Part shown: positions 40,545 through 44,265 of the stretch, piece after piece
Numbering within the stretch: the stretch's first letter is position 1
Layout: the number at the start of each line of letters is the position of its first letter
Sequence record: LC788708.1
From: Escherichia coli phage AZ21
DNA length: 64,000 bases
Direction: 5' to 3' (one strand)
The notes under the pieces: model-generated
Seen by the model: the letters and a program-made list of their open reading frames with translations, nothing else
Database searches by the model: none
Told to the model about the DNA's origin: nothing
Translations under genes and position numbers: made by a program

Positions 40545-41246
40545 ATGAAAGTAAAACCATTTGGTATGCTAGATATTGAATCTCTAGGAACTCCAGGAGA
40601 TTGTGGTACTACCCATATCGCAATGCCTTCATTCGCTTTTGTGGCTATGCATGGAATTGATAAAGACCCTGATCTAGTATTTGTTACTTTAGATGTACAA
40701 GATCAACTTAATTCTGGTGCCAAAGTTACAGCATCTACTCTAGCATTCTGGATGGATCAGGCTAAACATAGCCCGTCTGCTATCCACATTATGGAAGCTA
40801 TGAATGAGCGTAATCCAAAACTGGTTGCCTTCCAAAATGGTAAACATCATTGCACTAATAAACTTGGCTCTAACCATGCTGCCTTCTCTATGGCTCAAAA
40901 TATTATGGAGTTGGCTCTAGGCGAAAATGCTTTGTATTATGGCAATGGCCCAGAGTTTGATATGACTATCTACTCTGCAAACACTTTCCATGCTGGAACC
41001 AATGAAGAAATAGTTCCGTGGAAATTCTGGAACTTGGGTAATGTTAGATCTCTTCGTAATCTCTGGATGCAAACTGGCTATAGTTATAAAGCTCTAGAAA
41101 CCGAAGGTATTAGCTGGGCAATAGCTAAAATGGAGAAGATGGACACCATTCGTTATGGGATCTATCCGGTTAAGCACGACCCAGCATTCGATGCCCTAGT
41201 TGAGAGCTATTGTGTTGCAGCTATGATCGAAAAAATGAAAATTTGA
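40545..41246 (+). CDS. Putative DEDDh 3'-5' exonuclease (Rv2179c-like)
   Basis: N-terminal MLDIESLGT (Exo I), YGNGPEFD (Exo II), KHDPAFDAL (Exo III HxAxxD). Confidence 0.5.
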   Translation: MKVKPFGMLDIESLGTPGDCGTTHIAMPSFAFVAMHGIDKDPDLVFVTLDVQDQLNSGAKVTASTLAFWMDQAKHSPSAIHIMEAMNERNPKLVAFQNGKHHCTNKLGSNHAAFSMAQNIMELALGENALYYGNGPEFDMTIYSANTFHAGTNEEIVPWKFWNLGNVRSLRNLWMQTGYSYKALETEGISWAIAKMEKMDTIRYGIYPVKHDPAFDALVESYCVAAMIEKMKI

Positions 41247-41247
41247 T

Positions 41248-41276
41248 TTGCTTCCGGCTCCAAAATTCTGTATAAT
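41248..41276 (+). promoter_or_regulatory. Sigma70-type early promoter
   Basis: ttgctt-17 nt-tataat-atattcataaatttgag. Confidence 0.65.
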
Positions 41277-41316
41277 ATATTCATAAATTTGAGAAAACAA
41301 TAAAAGGAAAACAAAT

Positions 41317-41499
41317 ATGCCAGTATCTAAAAATGTTCGTAAAAATGGTAAGAAAGCTACTCGTAATCTGGGTATCCGTCGTATGGCTGAACGTCAATCA
41401 GGTATCCAGAAAATCTTTGATCTGCTAAATCGTGCTAATCCTAAAATTGATAACAGTAACGATACTGTTCTGCGCACCCTGCTGGCAATTGGTCTGTAA
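41317..41499 (+). CDS. Hypothetical small basic protein
   Basis: 60-aa ORF. Confidence 0.45.
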   Translation: MPVSKNVRKNGKKATRNLGIRRMAERQSGIQKIFDLLNRANPKIDNSNDTVLRTLLAIGL

Positions 41500-41552
41500 T
41501 AGACCAAATTTAAACAAATTCAAATCTCAAACTTCATATAAGGAAGCAAATA

Positions 41553-42191
41553 ATGACTACTCGTATCTCTAAAACTCGCGCTCTGGCAACTATCAAATCT
41601 CTGGAAGCTAAAATCCGTAAAGCTACTGAACAACAGCTTCTGATCGCTGTTGGTGAAGGTAAGGATAAAAACCAGGTTGTAGTTGGCGCTGCAATCGAAG
41701 TAGATGCCCTGTCTACTCGTATTAAAACTGATTTCCAATCTCTGCTGGATATGATGTCTCAGCGTGATCGTATTAAATCTGCTCTGATTAAGAGCAATGC
41801 AGAAACAATCGTTGAGATTGGTTCTCGTAAGATGACTGTTGCGGAAGCAATTGAAGCTAAGCGTTCTATGGAGCTTAAAGCTCAGCTGCTGGCTAACATG
41901 CGTAAGCAGTTCCATGCCGCTACGATTAAGTTTAATACGCAGAAAGCACAGTTTGATGCTAAATATGAGCGTTTGCAGGATAGCATGGCTACCCGCGATA
42001 AGAAAACTTCCGAAGATGAAGTTAAAATGCAGCTCAATCTGCTGGAACTCAAGAATACTCCATTCTTGATTGATCCGCTGGAACTGGAGAAGCTGATTAA
42101 GCAGCATGACGAGGAATACCAGGACTTTGCAACAAATGTTGACTTTGTTCTATCCGAGTCTAACGCCTCTACCTTCATTGAAGTAGAGTAA
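41553..42191 (+). CDS. Hypothetical coiled-coil protein
   Basis: 212 aa; RBS aaggaagcaaataATG. Confidence 0.5.
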   Translation: MTTRISKTRALATIKSLEAKIRKATEQQLLIAVGEGKDKNQVVVGAAIEVDALSTRIKTDFQSLLDMMSQRDRIKSALIKSNAETIVEIGSRKMTVAEAIEAKRSMELKAQLLANMRKQFHAATIKFNTQKAQFDAKYERLQDSMATRDKKTSEDEVKMQLNLLELKNTPFLIDPLELEKLIKQHDEEYQDFATNVDFVLSESNASTFIEVE

Positions 42192-42574
42192 TAATTTAAA
42201 AGCTAGTAAATCGGTAGACGAAAGCCCAAGCATCTTACCTCGCAGCAGCGGTTGAAATACGAGGTTAAATAAGACCGCTGACCATACTATAAAGTATAAT
42301 CTATTGGAGATTATGTTTATTACACCAGCCTCTTAAGCTGACACGTAAGAACAAAGCGTCGTTGATATTACCGACACAACTTCAAAGATCAACATTTAAG
42401 TATGAAAGCTGAAAAGTTTAAAGAACTCAAACTTCTAAACTTCTAAAGCTAAAAGATGCAAAGTATTCGTTGATGATTCAAACCCTAGATCAAAGGTACA
42501 TGGCTCATAAGATATGGCCTGTGGCGCCTCTAGGCTGTTTATCGGTTTACTAGTTTCACAATTTAAAAATGTAT

Positions 42575-42603
42575 TTGCTAATTTACTAAGTTATCTGTAT
42601 AAT
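42575..42603 (+). promoter_or_regulatory. Sigma70-type early promoter
   Basis: ttgcta-17 nt-tataat-atatttttaaattgatgaaacgagg. Confidence 0.65.
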
Positions 42604-42633
42604 ATATTTTTAAATTGATGAAACGAGGCTATT

Positions 42634-42951
42634 ATGACTTTTCATATTTTGATTGATGATGTGCGTAATCTTCACGGAATGGACATTATCATTCGAACCC
42701 CAGAAGCCGCTGTAGAGTTTCTGAATAAAACTGATACCACAGGCCACTTCGTTTATATGGATAATGACTTGGCTGTAGATGGTATGGAAGGTTATCAAAT
42801 TCTTCGTTTACTCTTAGAATTTGGGCAGAGACCAAAGAAAGTGGTACTAGTAACCTCAAACCCAGTAGCTAAGCAAAATATGCGTAATGATTTGCTTGAC
42901 TTAGGGTATAAAGAAAATCCCAATCGTGTTGAATATGATTGGCAGGAGTAA
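42634..42951 (+). CDS. Stand-alone receiver (REC/CheY-like) domain protein
   Basis: 105 aa; HILIDD (beta1 acidic pair), FVYMDNDLAVDGMEG (beta3 Asp), VVLVTSNP (beta4 Thr/Ser), YKENP (beta5 Lys). Confidence 0.4.
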   Translation: MTFHILIDDVRNLHGMDIIIRTPEAAVEFLNKTDTTGHFVYMDNDLAVDGMEGYQILRLLLEFGQRPKKVVLVTSNPVAKQNMRNDLLDLGYKENPNRVEYDWQE

Positions 42952-42956
42952 AAAGA

Positions 42957-43406
42957 ATGAAGGCAGCTTTGCTTTTAGTAGCTGCCCTTACCTTCAGCTT
43001 TAGTAGTCAGGCATCGCACGATGCAAAAGAAATAGATTGCATTGCTAAAAATATCTATTTCGAGAGTCGCGGTGAGGGCATAAAGGGAATGACGGCGGTT
43101 GCACATGTTACTAAAAACCGTGTAAACTCCGGTAAATTCCCAGATTCCTACTGTAAAGTAGTATATCAGTCTAACCAGTTCTCTTGGGTATCTAAGAGAC
43201 CAAAAGTTGATAAAACTGATGAGGCTTGGCAAACCGCTAAGAATTTAGCTAGAGTGATATACTACGTTGATTTACCACAAGATCCTACGTATGGAGCACT
43301 ATACTTCCATAGTGGTAAAGATAAACCTTACTGGACAAAGAAGTTTAAGAAAACAACTAAGATTAAGGGACATACGTTTTATAAACCTGTTGTCACTAAA
43401 ACTTAA
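42957..43406 (+). CDS. Secreted SleB-like cell-wall hydrolase
   Basis: Signal peptide MKAALLLVAALTFSFSSQA; IAKNIYFESRGEG...AVAHVTKNRV...YCKVVYQSNQFSW matches SleB/Hydrolase_2 family. Confidence 0.65.
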   Translation: MKAALLLVAALTFSFSSQASHDAKEIDCIAKNIYFESRGEGIKGMTAVAHVTKNRVNSGKFPDSYCKVVYQSNQFSWVSKRPKVDKTDEAWQTAKNLARVIYYVDLPQDPTYGALYFHSGKDKPYWTKKFKKTTKIKGHTFYKPVVTKT

Positions 43407-43414
43407 AAATTTAC

Positions 43415-43443
43415 TTGCTTAGCTACTTAAATTTCTGTATAAT
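43415..43443 (+). promoter_or_regulatory. Sigma70-type early promoter
   Basis: ttgctt-agctacttaaatttctg-tataat-actttcataaattaatgagaggaag. Confidence 0.7.
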
Positions 43444-43474
43444 ACTTTCATAAATTAATGAGAGGAAGCGAAAT

Positions 43475-43645
43475 ATGAAATCAGTTGTAATTATTGGTGT
43501 TAACACTCGCGGTATTCGTACTACGAAAACTGTTAAAACTTCTAACGTTGCTGAAATCACTACGAACCCTAAAAAGTTTGATTTCGCCAAAGTCTCAGCA
43601 GTTATGACAGAACAATCTTTTAACCAAGCATTGGGGATGAAATAA
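43475..43645 (+). CDS. Hypothetical small protein (56 aa)
   Basis: ATG 10 nt after RBS gagaggaag; stop overlaps next start (TAATG); below the ORF-track size cutoff. Confidence 0.45.
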   Translation: MKSVVIIGVNTRGIRTTKTVKTSNVAEITTNPKKFDFAKVSAVMTEQSFNQALGMK

Positions 43646-44193: not shown

Positions 44194-44265
44194 GCCGTCC
44201 TAGTATAATTGGTATTATCAAGCCGTAACTGGTGGAAGATGTAGGTTCGAATCCTACGGTCGGTA
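44194..44265 (+). tRNA. tRNA-like gene with canonical T-arm but irregular acceptor/anticodon arms (possible degenerate tRNA)
   Basis: T-arm gtagg-ttcgaat-cctac and D-loop aattgg are present; acceptor gccgtcc/ggtcggt has one U-U mismatch; best anticodon stem has only 4 bp (loop gccgtaa); no encoded CCA. Confidence 0.4.

What the first reader, a model, noticed from the sequence alone, without database searches (positions are those of the whole stretch)
42192..42633. Second ORF-free island (about 440 bp) between early genes
No ORF of 60 aa or more on either strand. It contains a promoter-like tataaagtataat followed by a 7-codon mini-ORF (ATGTTTATTACACCAGCCTCTTAA) with a ggag RBS, a 14-codon ORF (MKAEKFKELKLLNF), and the canonical early promoter for the next gene at its 3' end. 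It may encode small peptides, a regulatory RNA, or a recombination/insertion scar.
Basis: seen in the sequence. Interest (0 to 1): 0.4.

Follow-up and report, generated by a model that had tools for sequence, protein, structure and literature searches.

The report
Unannotated structured RNA beside phage gene
The "empty" 440 bases in this T5-like phage encode a large, intricately folded non-coding RNA of about 357 nt that, in hundreds of unrelated phages and prophages, always sits just after the same small protein gene of unknown function, which points to an undescribed RNA-protein pair.

Summary
The window is a T5-like phage (100% identical to E. coli phage AZ23). Positions 42200-42556 (+) encode a ~357-nt structured RNA. 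It has a 20-bp helix closing its 5' and 3' ends, an invariant GAA, an H-type pseudoknot, variable hairpins, a single-stranded array of tandem 7-nt repeats (N-U-N-A-A-A-G) and a three-tier 3' hairpin ending in GGCUG. The same architecture follows the stop codon of every inspected homolog of the upstream gene (T5.085 / phrog_1491, wrongly called "tail fiber"). This holds in Demerecviridae, Vequintavirinae, jumbo Erwinia phages, Pseudomonas, Vibrio, Bacillus, Lactococcus and C. difficile phages and in Bacillota prophages. The helices covary heavily: 94.5% of cells paired against 59% in shuffles. Among T5-like genomes the RNA varies at 11% of sites, against 58-75% at third codon positions of flanking genes. 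Rfam 15 has no matching family, and the protein resembles only DUF6847, also of unknown function. My best reading is a phage RNA-protein particle in which the repeat array binds several copies of the protein. Its function is unknown but is probably tRNA- or RNA-related.

The parts
41553..42191 (+). T5.085 homolog (212 aa; phrog_1491; often mislabelled 'tail fiber protein'): the protein gene invariably found just upstream of the RNA, and its presumed partner
42200..42556 (+). Whole structured non-coding RNA (357 nt)
   Evidence: It is the only hit of the strict architecture finder in the 64-kb window on either strand. MFE -97.5 kcal/mol, z = -5.09 against shuffles. RNAalifold consensus with 26 of 40 pairs compensated. 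10.9% variable sites against 58-75% at codon position 3 of neighbours.
42200..42219 (+). P1 5' arm (AAGCTAGTAAATCGGTAGAC) of the long-range closing helix
   Evidence: Pairs with 42537-42556. The innermost 10 pairs are 96.6% paired across 32 lineages, and 9 of 10 pairs show changes on both sides. G-U pairs are frequent, so the + strand is the RNA strand.
42220..42222 (+). Junction GAA, invariant in the 32-sequence alignment
   Evidence: Invariant columns G11 A12 A13 in alignment A3. Variants GGU, GUA and GAC were seen by eye in a few lineages.
42237..42280 (+). H-type pseudoknot. S1 is ACCTCG (42237-42242) with CGAGGT (42260-42265). S2 is CAGCGGTT (42246-42253) with GACCGCTG (42273-42280). An A-rich linker TAAATAA joins them.
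   Evidence: Found in 33 of 33 non-redundant RNAs at the same place with different sequences. Mean score 22.2 against 11.0 (sd 8.8) in dinucleotide shuffles. S1 was also predicted independently by RNAalifold.
42284..42375 (+).
   Evidence: Least conserved segment, 22% variable sites. Hairpin sequences differ between lineages. In other phages the same site holds a tRNA-Thr (L055) or a YrlA-like tRNA-like module (Ea35-70).
42380..42463 (+).
   Evidence: Spacing between successive AAAG is 7 nt (40 observed, 0.9 expected) or 14 nt (30 observed, 1.9 expected). The consensus is the same in proteobacterial-phage and Bacillota sets. No consensus pairing predicted.
42484..42534 (+). Three-tier 3' hairpin, preceded by CAAAC and closed by CCTAGA/TCTAGG; loop TCATAAGATATG
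   Evidence: Outer stem 91% paired with compensatory changes. Inner tiers covary. The hairpin spans 48-56 nt in nearly all lineages.
42535..42556 (+). CU junction followed by the P1 3' arm (GTTTATCGGTTTACTAGTTT)
   Evidence: G70 C71 T72 G73 are invariant in A3; pairing counted. The homing endonuclease gene insertion in phage bobsandoy falls between 42555 and 42556, at the last base of the P1 3' arm.
42575..42603 (+). Sigma-70 early promoter (TTGCTA-17-TATAAT) of the next gene; not part of the RNA
   Evidence: Consensus scan, 10 of 12 matches; annotated as a promoter in T5 AY543070.
42634..42951 (+). T5.084 homolog, cREC_REC (cyclic-phosphate-processing receiver) domain protein. This is a neighbour in T5-like phages only, not a conserved part of the module.
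   Evidence: Pfam PF20274, E 3.8e-15. Not conserved next to the module in other lineages.

Best explanation
Window 42200-42556 (+) encodes a discrete, highly structured non-coding RNA of about 357 nt. It belongs to a widespread RNA class that does not match any family in Rfam 15.

Shown:
- Its ends are clamped by a 20-bp helix.
- Inside lie a conserved GAA/CU junction, an H-type pseudoknot with an A-rich linker, a variable insertion site, an unpaired array of about 8-14 tandem heptamers (N-U-N-A-A-A-G) and a three-tier hairpin.
- It always sits a few nucleotides after the stop codon of a ~210-aa helical protein (T5.085 / phrog_1491).

Inferred:
- In T5-like phages it is made as the 3' part of the early T5.086-T5.085 transcript.
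- RNA and protein form one particle. The heptamer array is a multi-site platform that binds several copies of the protein, perhaps through its duplicated S-N-A-x-T motif. The folded core gives stability and defined ends.
- The particle acts in trans early in infection on some aspect of tRNA or RNA metabolism, or on a host-phage conflict over it. This last step is the most speculative. It rests only on the habitual position inside phage tRNA clusters and on occasional embedded tRNA or tRNA-like modules.
For: RNA and its structure:
- P1 and the 3' hairpin are 94.5% paired against 59.4% in shuffles. There are 191 cells changed on both sides against 52, and the covariation score is 0.967 against 0.232. 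Slid controls give 30-48% paired.
- RNAalifold recovers P1, pseudoknot stem S1 and the 3' hairpin without guidance.
- The pseudoknot is present in 33 of 33 non-redundant RNAs and scores far above shuffles.
- Folding energy z = -5.09.
- The heptad periodicity is 7 and 14 nt.

Constraint: 10.9% variable sites in the RNA against 58-75% at third codon positions of flanking genes in 28 T5-like genomes.

Linkage to the protein:
- The ORF-free gap follows the gene in all 10 phage genomes checked.
- The strict finder scores 68 of 90 viral loci. Most of the rest show variants by eye.
- Across those viral loci plus the bacterial-genome loci, the finder gives 76 distinct RNAs. They start a median of 11.5 nt after the stop codon.
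- No other protein family is consistently nearby.

Discrete RNA:
- tRNA genes begin 3-7 nt after its 3' end in several lineages.
- Intrinsic terminators follow it in Bacillota prophages.
- A homing endonuclease gene is inserted exactly at its 3' end.

Partner is universal: the heptad consensus is identical across host phyla, and the protein has invariant basic and S-N-A-x-T residues.
Against: - No expression data were found for this RNA in any phage, so its transcription, ends and abundance are inferred.
- No direct evidence shows that the protein binds RNA. Its fold (DUF6847-like helical bundle) has no known function and no recognised RNA-binding domain.
- Strict co-location would also be expected for a cis-acting 3' UTR element.
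- Loci for the covariation test were chosen by a finder that requires P1 pairing, which inflates the percentage paired for P1. It does not inflate the variety of pair types or the hairpin.
- The strict finder missed 22 of 90 viral loci and 55 of 78 bacterial loci. These were rescued only by eye through motif variants (GGCAG, GUA), and about five loci remain unresolved.
- The tRNA link is not universal: 31 of 54 loci have a tRNA within 1.5-2 kb.
Confidence: 0.55

Rival explanations
1. The RNA works on its own as a decoy or sponge. Its repeated single-stranded heptamers soak up a host RNA-binding factor. Candidates are the main decay endonuclease (AAAG|NUY resembles the RNase E preference R-N|W-U-U with U at +2, and cleavage after G in A/U-rich RNA reported for RNase Y), a tRNA-binding enzyme or a tRNA-targeting defence nuclease. 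The neighbouring protein only chaperones, protects or loads the RNA.
For: The array has many copies of a short unpaired motif, as in protein-sequestering RNAs. The heptad consensus is conserved across phyla, which fits a universal target. The module sits in tRNA clusters and sometimes carries tRNA or tRNA-like inserts. The resemblance to nuclease preferences rests on my own knowledge of the literature and was not tested.
Against: RNase E and RNase Y are unrelated enzymes of different phyla, yet the motif is the same in both host groups. A pure decoy would not need an obligatory, co-evolving protein gene or such an elaborate folded core.
Confidence: 0.2
2. It is a cis-acting 3' untranslated element of the T5.085 mRNA. 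It would be a large structured 3' end that stabilises the message, or that feeds back on translation of the upstream gene when the protein binds it.
For: The RNA starts a median of 11.5 nt after the stop codon on the same strand. In T5 there is no promoter call between gene and RNA. Terminators follow the RNA in several lineages.
Against: About 330 nt with a pseudoknot, an invariant junction and a heptad array is far more than 3'-end protection requires. In several lineages a hairpin separates gene and RNA. In others a tRNA abuts or is embedded, implying RNase P processing into a separate molecule. The RNA is more conserved than the synonymous sites of the gene.
Confidence: 0.15
3. It is a type III-like toxin-antitoxin or abortive-infection pair, in which a repetitive RNA neutralises the adjacent protein.
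For: A repeat-containing RNA sits next to a small protein gene on mobile elements, including prophages.
Against: Known type III antitoxins have 34-36-nt repeats placed upstream of the toxin. Here the repeats are 7 nt and lie downstream inside a folded RNA. The protein has no ToxN/AbiQ-like match and is all-helical. PADLOC finds nothing. The module is a core gene set of strictly virulent phages.
Confidence: 0.05
4. One reading: the gap encodes small peptides, carries an internal promoter, or is a recombination or insertion scar.
For: The motifs exist at the stated positions.
Against: The mini-ORFs are not conserved beyond close relatives, and their differences are non-synonymous. The RBS and ATG of the first are inside a stem. 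No promoter is called at the 'tataaagtataat' box. The region is under strong purifying selection with compensatory changes.
Confidence: 0.03

Closest known systems
Bacterial and phage Y RNAs (YrlA) with Ro60/Rsr
   Same: The 5' and 3' ends pair in a long stem that encloses functional modules. The RNA is encoded next to a dedicated protein gene and is linked to tRNA and RNA-repair neighbourhoods. In Erwinia phage Ea35-70 the variable site of this RNA carries a permuted tRNA-like module that matches the Rfam YrlA model (44.5 bits, E 1e-8).
   Different: There is no Ro60/TROVE protein. The T5 RNA gives no YrlA or Y_RNA hit even at E 10. It is three times longer and has a pseudoknot, a heptad array and GAA/GGCUG junction motifs that Y RNAs lack.
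GOLLD and ROOL large ornate RNAs of phages and prophages
   Same: These are large, complex non-coding RNAs carried by phages, typically beside tRNA genes, with unknown function.
   Different: No Rfam match to either. This RNA is shorter (about 255-440 nt against about 580-800). It has an obligatory protein-gene partner and a tandem heptamer array. GOLLD and ROOL are reported to be RNA-only assemblies (PMC12286853).
tmRNA with SmpB
   Same: The order of elements is similar: paired ends, then an H-type pseudoknot with an A-rich linker, then an A-rich single-stranded stretch, then more structure. It also has a dedicated small protein partner.
   Different: ARAGORN and Rfam find no tmRNA. There is no tRNA-like acceptor/T-arm with CCA and no conserved tag reading frame. 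The protein is a helical bundle, not an SmpB barrel.
Multi-site protein-sequestering RNAs (CsrB/RsmZ type) and repeat-reading RNA-binding oligomers (TRAP, HutP)
   Same: A short motif is repeated many times at fixed spacing. This is the signature of an RNA read by several identical protein subunits.
   Different: The motif is N-U-N-A-A-A-G rather than GGA, GAG or UAG. The repeats lie in an unpaired tract rather than in hairpin loops. The array is embedded in a clamped, pseudoknotted RNA, and the likely reader is phage-encoded.
T5 'stable RNAs of unknown function' (RNAX in AY543070)
   Same: The same phage, the same early/tRNA region, and the same status as a non-coding product with no known role.
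   Different: RNAX is annotated at T5 40848-41566, about 1.5 kb downstream. The RNA described here (T5 about 43141-43497, complement) carries only a promoter annotation at its edge.

Membership tests
Any Rfam 15 family (4227 models) | Covariance-model match at the gathering score, or at least a suggestive E-value | tested here: not met
   Window at gathering thresholds: only tRNAs elsewhere. Positions 42100-42700 at E up to 10: three chance miRNA/snoRNA hits at 14-19 bits. Nine homologous loci at E up to 0.1: only tRNAs and one partial YrlA hit.
YrlA / Y RNA - Ro60 | RNA matches the YrlA or Y_RNA model at gathering score (69 bits) | tested here: not met
   No hit in the T5 RNA. The Ea35-70 insert reaches 44.5 bits over model positions 23-87 only.
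YrlA / Y RNA - Ro60 | Adjacent Ro60 (TROVE-domain) protein | tested here: not met
   The adjacent protein has no Pfam domain. Its fold matches DUF6847 / 3kdq.
YrlA / Y RNA - Ro60 | 5' and 3' ends form a long closing stem | tested here: met
   P1 is 20 bp in T5 and 10-21 bp elsewhere, with covariation.
GOLLD / ROOL | Match to the family covariance model | tested here: not met
   No hits.
GOLLD / ROOL | Phage or prophage location beside tRNA genes | tested here: met
   31 of 54 loci have same-strand tRNA genes within 1.5-2 kb. Several tRNAs start 3-7 nt after the RNA.
GOLLD / ROOL | RNA-only homo-oligomeric assembly | not testable with these tools
   This needs cryo-EM or native gels.
tmRNA | tRNA-like domain with acceptor/T-arm and CCA end, and a tag-peptide reading frame | tested here: not met
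   ARAGORN finds no tmRNA and Rfam none. No ORF is conserved across lineages.
Type III toxin-antitoxin (ToxIN-like) | Tandem ~34-36-nt RNA repeats upstream of a ToxN/AbiQ-type endoribonuclease gene | tested here: not met
   The repeats are 7 nt and lie downstream of the gene. The protein has no ToxN-like Pfam or PADLOC match and is helical.
Sigma-70 promoter (for 'tataaagtataat') | A -35-like hexamer 16-18 nt upstream of the -10 hexamer | tested here: not met
   The scan of 41400-43100 reports no site there, only 42575-42603 and two sites elsewhere (a weaker one at 42792-42820 and one on the minus strand). The sequence is a hairpin arm that covaries in relatives.
Small protein-coding genes (the two mini-ORFs) | Reading frame and peptide conserved among relatives | tested here: not met
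   Both ORFs are absent outside Tequintavirus and Epseptimavirus. The three codon differences in the 14-codon ORF are all non-synonymous.
DUF6847 / DIP1984 family (for the partner protein) | Pfam PF20935 match at gathering score | tested here: inconclusive

The most novel reading that the evidence does not exclude
This is the founding example of a new class of phage ribonucleoprotein. It pairs a ~330-nt clamped, pseudoknotted RNA bearing a tandem heptamer array with a dedicated ~210-aa DUF6847-like protein. The protein family numbers thousands of sequence clusters in large tRNA-bearing phages and prophages of Proteobacteria, Bacillota and other phyla, and the RNA was checked in about 170 of their loci. 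Several protein copies would assemble on the array. The particle would intervene in the contest over tRNAs or RNA decay, for example by shielding or mimicking targets of host tRNA or RNA nucleases.
Probability: 0.3. Interest if true: 0.9.

Novelty: categorically new. Interest (0 to 1): 0.8.

Why it matters
T5 has been a model phage for seventy years, yet this RNA is unannotated in all the records I inspected, and its partner protein is propagated as a "tail fiber".

If confirmed, it would add a new large structured RNA family with a clear protein partner. Most orphan large RNAs (GOLLD, ROOL, OLE, raiA) lack such a handle. It occurs in genetically tractable phages (T5, the BASEL collection, PVP-SE1, Bacillus phages).

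That would make several questions directly testable:
- What the particle binds.
- Whether it belongs to the tRNA-centred arms race between phages and bacterial defence nucleases.
- How a 7-nt repeat code is read by a protein.

It would also correct a widespread mis-annotation and flag hundreds of "empty" intergenic regions as genes.

Tried and rejected
- **Rfam** at gathering and permissive thresholds on the window and nine homologous loci: nothing except tRNAs and a sub-threshold YrlA module in Ea35-70.
- **ARAGORN**: no tRNA or tmRNA in the region.
- **Ribozyme and RNase P resemblances.** I considered an RNase P-like RNA (the T5 P1 arms resemble E. coli M1 P1 by eye, from memory), a tmRNA relative and a hammerhead-like GAA/CUG junction. 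I dropped all three. The resemblances are confined to enteric phages or to two trinucleotides, and no model matches.
- **Phage K lnc001**, an abundant RNA beside tRNA-Met (PMC9241854), tested as a possible expressed member. It lacks the architecture, and the neighbouring gp233 is unrelated.
- **T5-family anti-retron protein Rad.** In SP15 Rad is ORF75 (189 aa, TOPRIM), eight genes away from the T5.085 homolog, ORF083.
- **Expression data.** The BF23 genome paper and the catalogue of 10,006 viral structured-RNA candidates do not mention this element. Pseudomonas phages with published long-read transcriptomes are absent from the 60 listed homolog-carrying records of 744.
- **Relaxed finder.** A relaxed architecture finder reached its threshold in 21% of shuffles, so I did not use it for counts.
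- **Pseudoknot S2 covariation with the official tool.** This was not possible because MAFFT does not keep S2 in register. I used a shuffle control of a constrained finder instead.
- **Neighbourhood clustering**: no further conserved partner protein.
- **NCBIfam and PADLOC** on four family members: no meaningful hits.

Full report
**Context.** The window is a Tequintavirus, 100% identical over the tested 2 kb to E. coli phage AZ23 and 97.5% to T5 across the gap. The finding lies between two + strand genes. Upstream is the homolog of T5.085 (41553-42191, 212 aa). Downstream is the homolog of T5.084 (42634-42951), a cREC_REC receiver-domain protein.

**Observation.**
No ORF of 60 aa or more lies inside the interval.
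- The only promoter call inside the gap is TTGCTA-17-TATAAT at 42575-42603. It coincides with the promoter annotated in T5.
- The gap is not neutral spacer. About 436 T5-like genomes keep it at 88-100% identity.
- In 28 aligned T5-like genomes, 10.9% of sites in 42200-42556 vary. The figure at third codon positions of the flanking genes is 58-75%, and at positions 1 and 2 of T5.085 it is 17% and 5%.

- A distant blastn hit fell in Enterobacter phage FENT2, an unrelated myovirus (Vequintavirinae). There a T5.085 homolog is followed by about 390 nt without real genes and then a tRNA-Thr.
- A tblastn search found the protein in 743 phage records from very different lineages.
- In all ten genomes inspected, the gene is followed by a 360-640-nt ORF-free gap, usually among tRNA genes. 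These were T5-like, Serratia Slocum, FENT2, Erwinia Hena1, jumbo phage Ea35-70, Lactococcus P1048, C. difficile phiCD211, Bacillus Thurquoise, Pseudomonas phiPsa300 and Vibrio Morian.
- Read side by side, the gaps share one architecture.

**Anatomy in the window.**

| Element | Coordinates | Sequence or note |
|---|---|---|
| P1 5' arm | 42200-42219 | pairs with 42537-42556 (20 bp, three G-U) |
| Junction | 42220-42222 | GAA |
| Pseudoknot S1 | 42237-42242 with 42260-42265 | ACCTCG / CGAGGT |
| Pseudoknot S2 | 42246-42253 with 42273-42280 | CAGCGGTT / GACCGCTG; linker TAAATAA |
| Variable hairpins | 42284-42375 | least conserved segment |
| Heptamer array | about 42380-42463 | tandem N-U-N-A-A-A-G |
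| 3' hairpin | 42484-42534 | preceded by CAAAC, followed by CU |

**Evidence for structure.**
- *Detection.* A script anchored on the conserved motifs found the architecture directly after the gene in 68 of 90 viral loci, with P1 arms of unrelated sequence. The same strict definition gives a single hit in the whole 64-kb window on both strands, at exactly 42200-42556.
- *Covariation count.* The test used 32 non-redundant lineages and mini-constructs holding the ten innermost P1 pairs and the whole 3' hairpin.
  - 94.5% of cells pair, against 59.4% in shuffles.
  - 191 cells are changed on both sides, against 52.
  - The covariation score is 0.967 against 0.232, and no shuffle of 500 reached it.
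  - Sliding the partners by 1-3 columns drops pairing to 30-48%.
- *Strand.* From the pair-type counts, G-U pairs make up about 13% of cells. This fixes the + strand as the RNA strand.
- *Independent prediction.* RNAalifold on ten full-length enteric-phage RNAs predicts P1, S1 and a three-tier 3' hairpin. 26 of 40 pairs are compensated, and the heptamer tract is left unpaired.
- *Pseudoknot.* It is present in 33 of 33 non-redundant RNAs, at 8-25 nt (mostly 16-25) after the GAA. It scores 22.2 against 11.0 (sd 8.8) in dinucleotide shuffles.
- *Folding energy.* The T5 RNA folds at -97.5 kcal/mol, z = -5.09.
- *Caveat.* The loci in the covariation test were selected by a finder that demands P1 pairing. 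This biases the percentage paired for P1, but not the diversity of pair types or the hairpin result.

**The repeat array.** Successive AAAG motifs are 7 nt apart (40 cases, 0.9 expected) or 14 nt apart (30 cases, 1.9 expected). The unit N-U-N-A-A-A-G is the same in proteobacterial phages and in Bacillota prophages.

**Evidence that it is a discrete RNA tied to the gene.**
- Across the viral and bacterial-genome loci the strict finder gives 76 distinct RNAs. They start a median of 11.5 nt after the stop codon (74 of 76 within 70 nt). Their median length is 326 nt.
- tRNA genes lie on the same strand within 1.5-2 kb in 31 of 54 loci. They begin 3-7 nt after the RNA's 3' end in L005, L043, L044, L046, L082 and L085. 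RNase P processing would then define that end.
- In L055 a tRNA-Thr(UGU) is embedded in the variable site. In Ea35-70 the same site holds a permuted tRNA-like module that matches the YrlA model below threshold.
- In Bacillota prophages the RNA is followed by intrinsic terminators.
- In Salmonella phage bobsandoy a homing endonuclease gene is inserted exactly at the 3' end of P1, leaving the RNA intact.
- Clustering all ORFs in 64 loci shows no other consistently associated protein.

**The protein.**
- It has no Pfam, NCBIfam or PADLOC family. PHROGs labels it "tail fiber protein", for which I see no basis.
- The AlphaFold model (pLDDT 89) is a bundle of long helical hairpins capped by a small four-stranded sheet.
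- The family is large and uniform, with 3274 clusters at 50% identity, and the 150 best hits are all 202-217 aa. It also occurs in 183 bacterial species genomes, mostly Bacillota.
- Invariant residues include R9, R71, K75 and K103. A motif L-x-x-S-N-A-x-T-h-h-E-h appears twice, at residues 78-89 and 200-211, each time leading into a strand of the sheet (read from the sequence).

- The "promoter-like" box (42288-42300) is the loop and 3' arm of a small hairpin, ATACT-ATAA-AGTAT. Its counterpart in relatives is ATCAT-ATAGG-ATGAT, CATTT..AAATG or ACC..GGT.
- The ggag and ATG of the 7-codon ORF lie in the next hairpin.
- The 14-codon ORF is a by-product of the A-rich repeats.
- Neither ORF survives outside close relatives.

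**Interpretation.**
- Shown: a conserved, structured, strand-specific RNA element with defined boundaries, strictly syntenic with one protein family.
- Inferred: it accumulates as a separate RNA, and it forms a particle with that protein. The heptad array would be the multi-copy binding platform. The 14-nt sub-periodicity and the duplicated protein motif fit one protomer reading two heptamers.
- Speculative: a role in tRNA or RNA metabolism, or in countering RNA-targeting host defences.
- Rivals: an RNA-only decoy for a host factor, a cis-acting 3' UTR element, and a type III-like toxin-antitoxin pair. These are weighed in the rival section.

**Novelty.** No Rfam 15 family matches in T5 or in nine distant loci. 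I found nothing describing this element in the searchable literature. That library omits most subscription journals and the older T5 literature, so prior description cannot be excluded. On the evidence here it is a new RNA class with a new protein partner.

Noticed in passing
window 41553-42191 and homologs in 743 phage records: The T5.085 / phrog_1491 family is widely annotated as 'tail fiber protein'. Nothing supports this. It is an early-region, ~210-aa helical protein related only to DUF6847. It carries a duplicated S-N-A-x-T motif (residues 78-89 and 200-211).
   Followed up: yes
window 40545-41246: The T5.087 homolog, annotated 'putative metallopeptidase' in T5 and many relatives, matches the Pfam Rv2179c-like 3'-5' exoribonuclease domain (E 3e-8). 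It is probably an RNase rather than a peptidase.
   Followed up: partly
window 42634-42951: The T5.084 homolog is a stand-alone cREC_REC domain (cyclic-phosphate-processing receiver, PF20274). This domain is tied to RNA-repair systems, so the local neighbourhood is rich in RNA-related functions.
   Followed up: partly
window 44194-44265: An Rfam tRNA hit (35.5 bits) that ARAGORN does not call. It lies in the stretch that T5 AY543070 annotates as 'RNAX, stable RNA with unknown functions'. It may be a degenerate or tRNA-like element.
   Followed up: no
L004 (Salmonella phage bobsandoy) 1366-1903; equivalent to window 42555/42556: A homing endonuclease gene is inserted precisely at the last base of the RNA's 3' arm, before the next promoter. 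It spares the RNA.
   Followed up: yes
L008 (Erwinia phage Ea35-70) 2253-2316; L055 2229-2305: The variable site of the RNA can host tRNA-shaped modules: a permuted YrlA-like tRNA mimic in Ea35-70 and a complete tRNA-Thr(UGU) in an uncultivated phage. In Vequintavirinae a tRNA-Thr(UGU) instead follows the RNA by 3-7 nt.
   Followed up: partly
L005 2296-2330, L007 2140-2172, L006 2152-2176: In Vequintavirinae and Serratia phage Slocum a separate conserved hairpin sits between the stop codon and the RNA (for example GAGGAATTATGAAAAACATCTTGTAATTCCTC). Its role is unknown; it could be a processing or attenuation signal.
   Followed up: no
L097-L176 (bacterial genomes): Lysinibacillus, Solibacillus and Brevibacillus prophage copies use junction variants (GGCAG instead of GGCUG, GUA instead of GAA). 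They escaped the strict finder, so motif-based counts underestimate the family.
   Followed up: partly
L094 1096-1729 (Staphylococcus phage K, minus strand): The published abundant lncRNA lnc001 beside tRNA-Met is a different, also uncharacterised, large phage RNA. It shares neither the architecture nor the partner protein.
   Followed up: partly
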